In this document: positions 3,003 through 3,860 of the stretch, in pieces
Position numbering within the stretch: position 1 is the first letter of the stretch
Layout of the letters: each line of letters starts with the position of its first letter
Virus record (IMG/VR): IMGVR_UViG_2663763232_000017
Coordinates: 1 to 8,879 of that record
Length of the DNA: 8,879 nucleotides
Source of the DNA: a virus
Lineage: Duplodnaviria > Heunggongvirae > Uroviricota > Caudoviricetes
Direction: 5' to 3' (one strand)
Made by a program: the position numbers and the translations under genes
Notes under the pieces: generated by a model
Database searches by the model: none
Told to the model about the DNA's origin: nothing
The model's input: the letters and a program-made list of their open reading frames with translations, nothing else

Positions 3003-3326
3003 ATGGAAGCATTAGTAGTAGAGCGAAGCGAGGATGGCTACTGGACGCACCCAGAATACGCCAACCTGTTTGGGGATAGAGAGGCAATTTCAGCTGATGA
3101 GTTCAGATCTTTCTGCAAGCAGCATGGCATTGAATCATCAATTGTTGAAATGGAAAACGACAACAATCAAACGGTAATTGACGCGTATTTTGAAGATGGG
3201 AATCCAAACATCAGTGGATGGGAGCCAAGCATGCCAGATGGAGAAGGATGGTTTGTCGGTTCGATTCACGATACAGAAGACGGTCCGATCTGCGTTTGGT
3301 TCAGGAATGTAGATAAGGCCGCATAG
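3003..3326 (+). CDS. Hypothetical strongly acidic protein (107 aa; about 23 Asp/Glu vs 5 Arg/Lys)
   Basis: Listed ORF with GAGGTG RBS. Composition counted from the translation. Sits where lambda carries ral/ea genes. Confidence 0.6.
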   Translation: MEALVVERSEDGYWTHPEYANLFGDREAISADEFRSFCKQHGIESSIVEMENDNNQTVIDAYFEDGNPNISGWEPSMPDGEGWFVGSIHDTEDGPICVWFRNVDKAA

Positions 3327-3341
3327 TCGGCCTTTATTTTT
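3315..3341 (+). terminator. Hairpin plus T-tract straddling the stop of the acidic gene (candidate intra-operon terminator/attenuator)
   Basis: AAGGCCG/CGGCCTT 7-bp stem with 6-nt loop, followed by TATTTTT. The stop codon TAG (3324..3326) lies in the loop. Confidence 0.45.
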
Positions 3342-3389
3342 GGCACTAACAACAGAATAAACACTGCACTGAATTATTTGAGGTGAGAT

Positions 3390-3860
3390 ATGACAAAATC
3401 ATGGAGCGTACCTTTTCCTGAATCAGAAACTGAACATGATGGAATGCCTGTTTTCTGGAGATTCCAAGCGACAGTTGAAGAAGATGGAATCAAAATATTC
3501 GCACTTCAATATATAGCTTTTCATCAGACAGAGCATTATGCATGGTTGGTTCCTGCGCATTGGATTGTTAATTTTAAACCAGCACCAAATCAGTGGTTAC
3601 AGGAATGGAAACAAAAGAGAAATAGATATGCAATTAAGAAAGTAGCAAAAAATGCAGAAAGATCTTTTGCATTCCCAACGAAGAAACTTGCCATTGAAAG
3701 TTTATTGCGCCGGAAGAAATACCATTTAATGAGAATCAAACAAGATTTGGCTGTTGTATCAACTCTTGTTGATGGGATGAAGAATATTGATACATCAACA
3801 CCAGATATTGAATATAACTTTGGACACAACCAAGAAACAGAAAATTGGGTATTTTATTAG
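3390..3860 (+). CDS. Hypothetical protein (156 aa), AT-rich gene with basic C-terminal half
   Basis: Listed ORF with GAGGTG RBS. Local GC is roughly 30-35% against about 50% in neighbours (hand count of a 60-nt sample gave 28%). No recognizable family. Confidence 0.6.
   Translation: MTKSWSVPFPESETEHDGMPVFWRFQATVEEDGIKIFALQYIAFHQTEHYAWLVPAHWIVNFKPAPNQWLQEWKQKRNRYAIKKVAKNAERSFAFPTKKLAIESLLRRKKYHLMRIKQDLAVVSTLVDGMKNIDTSTPDIEYNFGHNQETENWVFY

What the first reader, a model, noticed from the sequence alone, without database searches (positions are those of the whole stretch)
3003..3860. Acidic/basic two-gene cargo module between N and cIII, with composition and junction signs of recent acquisition
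A strongly acidic 107-aa protein is followed by an AT-rich 156-aa protein with a basic C-terminal half. The two genes share near-identical translation-initiation junctions, are separated by a hairpin straddling the first gene's stop, and are closed off by an inverted repeat and a strong terminator. The locus corresponds to the lambda ral/sieB neighbourhood, a known hotspot for anti-restriction and exclusion genes. I recognise neither protein, so this could be an undescribed anti-defence, exclusion or toxin-inhibitor pair.
Basis: partly seen in the sequence, partly recalled or inferred. Interest (0 to 1): 0.7.

Follow-up and report, generated by a model that had tools for sequence, protein, structure and literature searches.

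The report
Two independent cassettes in lambda's ral slot
The two genes are real, but they are not a partnered pair: they are two separately travelling, already catalogued accessory genes of lambda-like phages, stacked here by chance in the swap site that holds the ral gene in phage lambda.

Summary
The described sequence features are all present. The window is the N-dependent early-left (pL) operon of a mEp213/HK97-like lambdoid prophage.

- Gene A (107 aa, acidic) is in 41 of 5426 complete E. coli genomes.
- Gene B (156 aa) is in 598 of them.
- The two are adjacent in only 8.
- Ten distinct neighbourhoods of each exact protein never contain the other.

The near-identical start junctions are copies of a conserved leader. 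That leader precedes at least ten different alternative first genes in this slot, including lambda orf28-ral. The closing hairpin and terminator are lambda's own ral-ea10 intergenic linker. Compared with mEp213, the window differs here by a 498-bp gene-B indel.

Gene A is orf184 (mEp213_045, 106/107 identical) of Silas et al. 2023. In that work it triggers cell death by the P4-satellite gop-beta-cII abortive-infection system. Its native function is unknown.

Gene B is HK97 gp45 / 933W L0079. It is often the first gene after N in Stx phages and is uncharacterised.

Neither protein matches any Pfam, NCBIfam, PADLOC or PDB entry. This is ordinary lambdoid mosaicism involving two known orphan genes.

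The parts
2350..2712 (+). Antiterminator N. It marks the start of the pL delayed-early operon. The nutL region lies upstream at about 2110-2190.
   Evidence: Pfam N_peptide E = 8e-19. Positions 2110-2678 align to the annotated nutL plus N of 933W.
2713..2940 (+). orf75, an accessory ORF of unknown function (phrog_5305). It is shared with mEp213_046 and E2348/69.
2937..2967 (+). Strong hairpin across the orf75 stop codon, followed by TTGTTTT. It looks like a terminator and forms the left edge of the gene-A segment shared with strains N39 and UTME-12.
   Evidence: Energy -20.3 kcal/mol, z = -5.9. Terminator scan. Homology breakpoints at 2971.
2976..3002 (+). Conserved 27-nt cassette leader, CAGCAAACCACTTATTTGAGGTGATAT, which includes the GAGGTG Shine-Dalgarno sequence. 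This is the full copy.
   Evidence: The same leader precedes A, B and lambda orf28 in all contexts examined. It fronts at least ten alternative first ORFs in 120 viral contigs.
3003..3326 (+). Gene A: a 107-aa acidic protein of phrog_1372. It equals mEp213_045 and orf184/UDP0184 of Silas et al. 2023.
   Evidence: AF2 model with pLDDT 87. No fold match.
3315..3334 (+). Terminator-like hairpin whose 5' arm is the last codons of A (Lys-Ala-Ala-stop). lambda and phi367 ral end the same way and share the 3' arm plus the T-run.
3323..3371 (+). Proximal half of the lambda ral-ea10 intergenic linker. It follows A here and follows ral in lambda and phi367.
   Evidence: 92% identity to lambda. Alignments.
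3374..3389 (+). Truncated second copy of the cassette leader (TTATTTGAGGTGAGAT), joined directly to the linker. The same join occurs between ral and gene B in phage phi367.
3390..3860 (+). Gene B: a 156-aa AT-rich protein of phrog_1636. It equals HK97 gp45, 933W L0079 and BP-4795 ORF18, and is 100% identical to the H-19B product.
   Evidence: AF2 model with pLDDT 63.
3870..3907 (+). 14-bp inverted-repeat hairpin without a U-tract. It is the start of the distal half of the lambda ral-ea10 linker.
   Evidence: Energy -21.7 kcal/mol, z = -5.7. 97.5% identical to lambda. A match confined to about this linker segment accounts for most of the 2235 of 5426 E. coli genomes with any hit.
3963..3991 (+). 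Intrinsic-terminator-like stem (8 bp, 5 G-C pairs) plus a T7 run. It is the right edge of the slot. From memory it corresponds to lambda tL2a near coordinate 33,930.
   Evidence: Sequence variation among loci falls in the loop or gives wobble pairs.
4004..4972 (+). orf322, a Glu/Ala/Lys-rich predicted coiled-coil protein (phrog_1376; mEp213_044, Sf6 gene 33). It is the next, independent cassette.
4997..5128 (+). cIII, the downstream landmark.
   Evidence: Pfam Lambda_CIII E = 4e-15.

Best explanation
Positions 3003-3860 hold two unrelated single-gene accessory cassettes stacked in one recombination slot of a lambdoid prophage's N-antiterminated pL operon. This is the slot that carries orf28-ral in phage lambda.

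**The slot (shown)**
- It is bounded on the left by a conserved 27-nt leader/RBS.
- It is bounded on the right by the lambda ral-ea10 intergenic linker, which comprises a small terminator-like hairpin, a 14-bp hairpin and a tL2-type terminator.
- These conserved linkers offer short homology by which lambdoid phages can exchange or stack cassettes (inferred). That would explain why the start junctions repeat and why a hairpin sits between the genes.

**Expression (inferred)**
- Neither gene has a recognisable sigma-70 promoter, so both are expressed as delayed-early genes by N-dependent readthrough from pL, during infection or induction and not in the lysogen.

**Gene A**
- Shown, by identity to a published protein: it is orf184. 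This acidic early protein activates the gop-beta-cII abortive-infection system of P4-like satellites.
- Inferred, about 40% likely: its native role is to bind and inhibit a host defence or host factor, with gop-beta-cII acting as a guard that senses it.

**Gene B**
- It is HK97 gp45 / 933W L0079, a separate early protein with an N-terminal beta-sheet and a long basic helix.
- Inferred, about 25-30% likely: it is a nucleic-acid-binding or host-factor-binding takeover or counter-defence protein that acts on its own.
For: **Operon identity**
- cII, cro, cI, N, cIII, Kil, Erf, SSB and Abc2 are all identified.

**Independence of A and B**
- Genome counts are 41 (A), 598 (B) and 8 (adjacent) of 5426.
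- About 26% of linker-bearing places carry B (834 of roughly 3250). Of A's 43 places, 19% have B next to them (8 of 43). There is no enrichment.
- Exact protein A occurs in 10 different neighbourhoods. Its downstream neighbour is cIII, DUF7167, orf322, DUF2528, GP17, Y8K6 and others, never B.
- Exact protein B occurs in 10 neighbourhoods, never next to A, and often starts 8 nt after the N stop codon. A occupies that same position elsewhere.
- mEp213, E2348/69 and N39 have A without B. 933W, BP-4795, H-19B and HK97 have B without A. phi367 has ral in A's place, followed by B.

**Linkers**
- The leader and the 3' flank are identical across all contexts and in lambda.
- In 120 viral contigs the leader fronts orf28-ral (about 52), B (30), an 83-aa ORF (about 14), A (5), a 149-aa ORF and others. 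Slots hold one to four cassettes in many combinations.

**Expression**
- There is no plus-strand promoter-like site in 2900-3900.

**Identity of gene A**
- It is 106/107 identical to AFM76385.1 = UDP0184 = orf184. That protein triggers gop-beta-cII cell death, and suppressor insertions map to gop and beta.
- gop-beta-cII is an anti-phage system.
- The acidic pI is conserved across the family (median 4.33).
Against: - The functions proposed for A and B are inferred from position and charge only.
- No family, fold or solved-structure match exists for either protein.
- The Silas preprint lists orf184 only as a cell-death trigger, not among its counter-defence hits.
- The B model is of low confidence (pLDDT 63), so its fold description is tentative.
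- The promoter scan covers only a sigma-70 consensus, so a weak or non-canonical promoter is not excluded.
- No A-B complex prediction could be run.
- Linker-mediated recombination is inferred from breakpoints. It was not observed.
Confidence: 0.78

Rival explanations
1. A and B form a functional two-gene module: a toxin with its inhibitor, or an acidic protein neutralising a basic partner, acquired together as cargo.
For: - The two genes are adjacent, have opposite charge and share an RBS junction.
- Eight E. coli genomes carry the same arrangement.
Against: - They are inherited independently at every scale tested.
- A 63-nt gap with a terminator-like hairpin separates them, so there is no translational coupling.
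- There is no promoter.
- There are no TA or defence family hits.
- The shared junction is a generic leader used by at least ten other cassettes.
Confidence: 0.04
2. Gene A is a DNA-mimic anti-restriction protein that replaces Ral functionally and inhibits type I R-M or another DNA-binding defence.
For: - It occupies exactly the ral position, with the same leader and the same 3' hairpin.
- It has net charge -17, and acidity is conserved in the family.
- It is an early gene in many temperate phages.
Against: - The conserved residues are aromatic, His, Asp and Cys in a C-terminal beta-hairpin. That differs from the pattern typical of DNA mimics, where mainly surface charge is conserved.
- It is not reported among the counter-defence hits of the 200-gene screen.
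Confidence: 0.15
3. Gene B is a moron expressed from the prophage. It would be a superinfection-exclusion or lysogenic-conversion gene, which would account for its abundance in Stx prophages.
For: - It is a compositional outlier (GC 35.5%, GC3 0.27).
- It is flanked by terminator-like structures.
- It is present in about 11% of complete E. coli genomes.
- The neighbouring slot in lambda carries sieB.
Against: - There is no promoter-like site upstream on the coding strand.
- It is read from the generic pL leader, often 8 nt after the N stop codon.
- It has no predicted membrane character and no PADLOC match.
- Homologues in other phages sit at the head of, or inside, early lytic operons.
Confidence: 0.07
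4. Gene B is a DNA- or RNA-binding accessory factor of the early-left operon, acting as a regulator or recombination helper and not as an anti-defence protein.
For: - It has a central basic segment (+12.8 over residues 61-125), and the family is conserved as basic.
- The model has a beta-sheet followed by a long helix, and the family shares a conserved RFAFxTKxxAxxxLxxRK motif.
- Homologues lie next to RecE, YqaJ, AAA_24 or Erf genes.
Against: - No DNA-binding family or fold was detected.
- Proximity to recombination genes is expected for any pL-operon gene.
- The model is of low confidence.
Confidence: 0.25

Closest known systems
Phage lambda orf28-ral segment and the ral-ea10 intergenic region (the lambdoid 'ral accessory region')
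   Same: - The same 5' leader/RBS.
- The same Lys-Ala-Ala-stop and hairpin ending.
- The same 3' linker with hairpin and terminator, 92-98% identical.
- The same position downstream of N in the pL operon.
   Different: - The cargo differs. Genes A and B replace orf28-ral, and neither is homologous to Ral.
- Two cassettes are stacked, with a truncated second leader.
orf184 / UDP0184 (mEp213_045, AFM76385.1) of Silas et al. 2023, bioRxiv 10.1101/2023.04.06.535777
   Same: - Gene A is 106/107 identical, with the same length and the same genomic position.
   Different: - There is one substitution: Ser35 here and Tyr in mEp213.
- The cell-death phenotype was measured for the mEp213 allele, not for this one.
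HK97 gp45 / 933W L0079 / BP-4795 ORF18 / the unannotated H-19B ORF (phrog_1636)
   Same: - Gene B is 98.7-100% identical at the protein level.
- It has the same leader and the same 3' linker.
   Different: - In those phages B directly follows N (in HK97 its position was not examined here), and A is absent from the three whose loci were read (933W, BP-4795, H-19B).
- Here it follows gene A.
Lambdoid mosaicism with conserved boundary ('linker') sequences. This is the Susskind-Botstein modular theory, with boundary sequences described for HK97/HK022/HK620 genomes (cited from memory).
   Same: Short conserved sequences at gene boundaries flank interchangeable genes, and homology breakpoints fall at start codons and terminators.
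   Different: Nothing essential differs. This slot is a particularly clear multi-allelic example, and its boundary reaches into the first two and the last three codons.
Phage morons (promoter, gene, terminator inserted between conserved genes)
   Same: - B deviates in composition and is a discrete indel relative to mEp213.
- Terminator-like hairpins follow both genes.
   Different: No dedicated promoter was found. Expression appears to depend on pL and N.

Membership tests
Lambdoid pL 'ral slot' accessory cassette | Lies downstream of nutL and N, and upstream of cIII and kil, on the pL-transcribed strand. | tested here: met
   N, cIII and Kil have Pfam hits, and all lie on the plus strand.
Lambdoid pL 'ral slot' accessory cassette | Flanked by the same leader and the same 3' linker as lambda orf28-ral. 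| tested here: met
   BLAST to lambda: 2978-3009, 3323-3371 and 3870-3990 match at 91-98%.
Lambdoid pL 'ral slot' accessory cassette | Alternative unrelated genes occupy the same flanks in related phages. | tested here: met
   At least ten different first ORFs follow the leader, in many stack combinations. The downstream and upstream partners also differ between neighbourhoods.
Toxin-antitoxin / toxin-inhibitor two-gene module | The two genes co-occur and stay adjacent across lineages. | tested here: not met
   Genome counts are 41, 598 and 8. None of 20 neighbourhoods shows them together. None of about 97 slots holds A followed by B. Distant homologues are not adjacent.
Toxin-antitoxin / toxin-inhibitor two-gene module | Own promoter, with overlapping or tightly coupled genes. 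| tested here: not met
   There is no promoter-like site. A 63-nt spacer with a terminator-like hairpin separates the genes.
Toxin-antitoxin / toxin-inhibitor two-gene module | Homology to known toxin or antitoxin families. | tested here: not met
   Pfam, NCBIfam and PADLOC gave no significant hits.
DNA-mimic anti-restriction proteins (Ocr, ArdA type), for gene A | Strongly acidic surface. | tested here: met
   pI 4.09 and charge -17; family median pI 4.33.
DNA-mimic anti-restriction proteins (Ocr, ArdA type), for gene A | Sequence or fold similarity to a known mimic. | tested here: not met
DNA-mimic anti-restriction proteins (Ocr, ArdA type), for gene A | Relieves restriction in vivo. | not testable with these tools
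   The only indirect evidence is that the published screen lists orf184 solely as a cell-death trigger.
Ral family | Homology to lambda Ral (66 aa, Cys-rich). | tested here: not met
   A shares only the last three codons and the flanks with ral. It belongs to different PHROGs.
orf184 family (phrog_1372), gop-beta-cII trigger | Near-identity to AFM76385.1. | tested here: met
   99.1% identity over 107 aa. The sequence is given in the paper's Supplementary File 3.
orf184 family (phrog_1372), gop-beta-cII trigger | Induces gop-beta-cII-dependent cell death. | not testable with these tools
   This was published for the mEp213 allele. The window's allele differs at residue 35.
phrog_1636 (HK97 gp45 / 933W L0079), for gene B | Full-length match to the family profile and to its named members. 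| tested here: met
   E = 5e-112 over 1-156 of 156. 98.7-100% identical to the HK97, 933W and H-19B products.
Moron | Own promoter, own terminator and deviant composition. | tested here: inconclusive
   The terminators and, for B, the AT-richness are present. No promoter was found with the consensus scan.

The most novel reading that the evidence does not exclude
Gene A and gene B are each an undescribed counter-defence protein that acts independently.
- A would inhibit a host immune or housekeeping factor that the gop-beta-cII system guards. That would explain why A sets off that system.
- B would be a basic nucleic-acid-binding inhibitor and might, in this rare stack, blunt the liability that A creates.

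Neither protein has a recognisable fold, so either mechanism would be new.
Probability: 0.25. Interest if true: 0.55.

Novelty: already known. Interest (0 to 1): 0.25.

Why it matters
As posed, a new acidic/basic anti-defence or toxin-inhibitor pair, the finding does not hold. The value of this follow-up is mainly corrective.

Two points remain useful.
- Gene B is among the most common orphan genes of E. coli prophages. It is in about 11% of complete genomes and in the well-known Stx phages 933W, H-19B and BP-4795, and it is often the first gene read after N. It has no known function or fold.
- Gene A is an experimentally documented trigger of an abortive-infection system, and its own target is unknown.

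The slot they occupy is a clean natural catalogue of interchangeable early genes: ral, A, B and at least seven others. It could be mined systematically for counter-defence functions.

Tried and rejected
**Family and sequence searches**
- Pfam, NCBIfam and PADLOC scans of A and B gave nothing significant.
- PHROGs returned only unknown-function families.
- PDB sequence searches, with single sequences and with profiles, gave only noise.

**Structure searches**
- The afdb50 library was unavailable.

**Profile searches**
- A search with the B profile against 1.84 billion representatives found 87 small, uncharacterised, mostly phage-borne relatives and no annotated domain.
- A search with the A profile found 787 relatives (120 listed), all unnamed or called hypothetical or prophage protein. 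The longer versions scanned (PY54 ORF48, phi1026b gp46 and others) have no Pfam domain.

**Other searches**
- Rfam found no RNA family in the window.
- Literature searches for HK97 gp45, 933W L0079 and mEp213 found nothing on gene B.
- The search for related loci with the divergent B alignment failed because no stretch was conserved enough.

**Hypotheses considered and rejected**
- TA or paired module: the genes assort independently.
- A as a Ral homologue: only the flanks and the last three codons are shared.
- Promoter-bearing moron or exclusion gene: no promoter was found.
- The 32-aa ORF at 3909-4007 as a gene: variation follows the terminator stem-loop, not the codons.
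Full report
**1. What the window is**

The ORF map and family scans identify a lambdoid prophage immunity and early-left region:
- cII (523-819, minus strand)
- a Cro-like HTH protein (961-~1173, minus strand)
- cI (1288-1947)
- N (2350-2712)
- four accessory ORFs
- cIII (4997-5128) and Kil (5113-5265)
- Erf (5492-6127), an SSB (6127-6510) and Abc2 (6534-6827)
- Ea22-like ORFs and an Xis-like ORF at the end

Everything from cI rightward is on the plus strand, so 3003-3860 lies in the N-antiterminated pL operon. 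Over 2647-3371 and 3870-6982 the window is 97-99% identical to phage mEp213.

**2.

- Gene A (3003-3326) encodes 107 aa with pI 4.09 and charge -17.
- Gene B (3390-3860) encodes 156 aa at 35.5% GC (GC3 0.27), against 45% for the window.
- B's basic part is central (residues 61-125, +12.8) and its tail is acidic.
- The two start junctions share 18 of 19 nt.
- The hairpin over A's stop (3315-3334, -11.5 kcal/mol, z = -1.8) is modest.
- The inverted repeat (3870-3907, -21.7 kcal/mol, z = -5.7) and the terminator (3963-3984 plus T7, -14.5 kcal/mol, z = -4.8) are strong.

**3. The two genes are not a unit**

Counts in 5426 complete E. coli genomes:
- Gene A is present in 41 genomes (43 places).
- Gene B is present in 598 genomes (834 places).
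- A query spanning both genes is covered at 80% or more in only 8 genomes.
- Roughly 3250 places carry part of the slot, mostly the 3' linker. B therefore sits in about 26% of slots and in 19% of A-bearing slots, which is no enrichment.

Neighbourhoods of the exact proteins:
- Exact-sequence look-ups returned ten different neighbourhoods for each protein, and none contains the other.
- A is followed by cIII, DUF7167, orf322, DUF2528 (Ea10), GP17, a Y8K6-family gene or small unknown ORFs.
- B follows different N types or small ORFs. It is followed by GP17, orf322, cIII or others.
- Both genes frequently start 8 nt after the stop codon of an N36-type N, so they are alternatives for one position.

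Named phages show the same pattern:
- mEp213, E2348/69 and N39 carry A without B.
- 933W, BP-4795 and H-19B carry B immediately after N, without A. HK97 also carries B as gp45.
- phi367 carries ral where A is, and then B.

Distant homologues also stay apart. A-like genes in Pectobacterium and Symbiopectobacterium, and B-like genes in Pectobacterium and Brenneria (just upstream of xis-int), are never adjacent to each other.

**4. What the repeated junction and the hairpins are**

Listing the flanks in all retrieved loci shows a 27-nt leader, CAGCAAACCACTTATTTGAGGTGA(T/G)AT. It precedes the ATG of both A and B wherever they occur, whatever lies upstream. The same leader precedes lambda orf28-ral.

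Downstream, A, B and ral are all followed by the same sequence, which is the ral-ea10 intergenic region of lambda itself. The window's 3323-3371 and 3870-3990 match lambda at 92% and 97.5%. From memory, the terminator corresponds to lambda tL2a near coordinate 33,930. I could not verify that name with the tools.

The boundary even enters the coding sequence:
- A, lambda Ral and phi367 Ral all end Lys-Ala-Ala-stop, because these codons form the 5' arm of the small terminator-like hairpin.
- Other members of the A family end differently.

In the window the proximal linker half is joined to a truncated leader (TTATTTGAGGTGAGAT) in front of B. The identical join is present between ral and B in phi367. 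The stack is therefore an existing arrangement in which A and ral alternate in first position.

Relative to mEp213, the window differs here by a 498-bp indel (about 3372-3869) flanked by AATAA(A/G)CACTG.

**5. The slot is combinatorial**

I scanned IMG/VR for 21 nt of the leader. The first ORF behind the leader was as follows:

| First ORF | Contigs |
|---|---|
| orf28(-ral) | about 52 |
| B | 30 |
| an 83-aa ORF | about 14 |
| A | 5 |
| a two-TM ORF of about 149 aa (length variants 121-149) | about 6 |
| several others | a few each |

Between leader and 3' linker, about 97 complete slots hold one to four cassettes in dozens of combinations. Examples are B alone (26), orf28-ral alone (17), ral+149aa, ral+207aa, ral+B, 140aa+B, A alone and A+98aa. 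None holds A+B.

This is the classical lambdoid picture of interchangeable genes between short conserved boundary sequences. The link to the modular theory and to the HK97/HK022/HK620 comparative work is from my own knowledge.

**6. What gene A is**

- A belongs to phrog_1372 and to a family of at least 787 proteins of about 105 aa; the listed hits are unnamed or called hypothetical or prophage protein.
- Family members occur in phages of Escherichia, Burkholderia, Pseudomonas, Vibrio, Erwinia, Klebsiella and Yersinia. Some carry extra N- or C-terminal extensions that have no Pfam domain.
- The invariant residues cluster in W-T-H-P near the N-terminus and in GWF(V/I)GSIHDTEDGPxC(V/I)W in a C-terminal beta-hairpin.

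The decisive lead came from the literature. Supplementary File 3 of Silas et al. (bioRxiv 10.1101/2023.04.06.535777) lists UDP0184 = AFM76385.1 = mEp213_045. Its sequence is identical to gene A except Tyr for Ser at residue 35. The authors annotated it "many" NR hits and "??? - checked but nothing meaningful found".

The paper reports the following for orf184:
- It activates toxicity of the gop-beta-cII locus of ECOR59.
- Suppressor insertions map to gop and beta.
- The effect was reconstituted in a laboratory strain.

Rousset et al. (PMC9122126) showed that gop-beta-cII is a P4-hotspot anti-phage system active against lambda and P1.

So gene A has a published phenotype as an abortive-infection trigger. 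Its native function is still unknown, and it is listed only as a trigger, not among the counter-defence hits.

**7. What gene B is**

- B is phrog_1636 (E = 5e-112).
- It is 100% identical to the H-19B product, 99.4% to 933W L0079 and BP-4795 ORF18, and 98.7% to HK97 gp45.
- The exact protein is recorded on at least 1000 contigs.
- A profile search of 1.84 billion representatives found only 87 relatives. These are proteins of about 140 aa from phages and gammaproteobacterial prophages. They share YYR...E-G-(L/I)...HET-C in an N-terminal sheet and K...SRFAFxTKxxAxxxLxxRKxxQLxHLKR in a basic helix.
- None has a Pfam domain, and none has a PDB relative.
- Homologues sit in early operons: after N in lambdoid phages, at the head of an early operon in Salmonella phage NX263, beside RecE in a Vibrio phage, after AAA_24 in a metagenomic phage, and upstream of xis-int in Pectobacterium and Brenneria.
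- I found no paper on it.

**8. Mechanism**

Shown:
- the position in the pL operon
- the shared leader and linker
- the independent distribution of A and B
- the identity of A with orf184 and of B with HK97 gp45 / 933W L0079

Inferred:
- Both genes are expressed only by N-dependent readthrough. No sigma-70-like promoter lies on the coding strand in 2900-3900. They would therefore act during infection or induction, which disfavours prophage-expressed exclusion.
- The linkers provide the homology for cassette exchange.
- A binds a host factor or defence component and is sensed by gop-beta-cII in a guard-like way (about 40%).
- B is a nucleic-acid-binding or host-factor-binding early protein (about 25-30% for counter-defence, with similar weight for a regulatory or recombination-accessory role).

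**9. Verdict**

Both genes are already catalogued in model phages, and one has a published phenotype. The architecture is ordinary lambdoid mosaicism.

Interest is low to moderate. It rests on the fact that two very common early genes still lack a mechanism.

Noticed in passing
window 2976-3008, and loci L012-L031 and L040-L159: The conserved cassette leader extends into the coding sequence. Most alternative cassettes in this slot begin ATG-GAA (Met-Glu: MEA.., MEE.., MEF.., MER..), whereas gene B begins ATG-ACA. The recombination boundary seems to include the first two codons.
   Followed up: partly
window 3870-3907; lambda about 34,045-34,008; mEp213 locus L005 3960-4000: A perfect 14-bp hairpin without a U-tract opens the distal linker, and it is identical in lambda. 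A second copy of the linker in mEp213 (L005 4001-4067, 100% identical to window 3904-3970) has a different palindrome (TATAGCAGA...TCTGCTAT) at the same place. The structure, and not the sequence, may therefore be what is kept, for example as an RNA-processing or stabilising element. Its function is unknown.
   Followed up: partly
window 3870-3990: Of 5426 complete E. coli genomes, 2235 hold some part of the 2900-4000 query (3250 places). In most of them the match is only this 121-nt linker segment, far more than hold any single cassette next to it.
   Followed up: partly
window 3315-3326; lambda and phi367 ral 3' ends: Gene A and Ral are unrelated proteins, yet both end Lys-Ala-Ala-stop. Their last codons form the 5' arm of the shared terminator-like hairpin. 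The stem is strong in phi367 (-16.5 kcal/mol), intermediate here (-11.5) and decayed in lambda (-6.0).
   Followed up: yes
window 2937-2967: A strong hairpin (-20.3 kcal/mol, z = -5.9) spans the orf75 stop codon and is followed by TTGTTTT. It is terminator-like and coincides with a mosaic breakpoint at 2971.
   Followed up: partly
window 4004-4972: orf322 is a Glu/Ala/Lys/Arg-rich protein, probably a coiled coil (phrog_1376; mEp213_044, Sf6 gene 33). It has low GC3 (0.33) and no known function. It is another independently assorting cassette, seen after A, after B or after GP17 in other prophages.
   Followed up: partly
window 3909-4007: A 32-aa ORF runs through the terminator and ends by overlapping the orf322 start. 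Its equivalent is annotated as a CDS in phage phi367. Differences between loci fall in the terminator loop or give wobble pairs, so it is probably not coding.
   Followed up: partly
locus L005 (mEp213) 2953-3285 and 4438-4710: mEp213 is annotated with two different N antiterminator genes in tandem, separated by small ORFs and a partial copy of the ral-ea10 linker. This looks like another product of linker-mediated stacking.
   Followed up: no
loci L040-L159 (IMG/VR): A two-TM ORF of about 149 aa, beginning MEEQANKILVELL (length variants of 121-149 aa were seen), recurs in this slot and often follows ral. Its start matches UDP0047, a 121-aa entry in the Silas et al. accessory-gene list. It may be the exclusion-type (SieB-like) occupant of the region.
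   Followed up: no
loci L008, L009, L011: In Yersinia phage PY54 (ORF48), Burkholderia phage phi1026b (gp46) and Klebsiella phage SopranoGao (gp66), the gene-A domain is part of longer proteins (173-221 aa). Their extra segments have no Pfam match. In SopranoGao the gene upstream carries a WDGH domain.
   Followed up: partly
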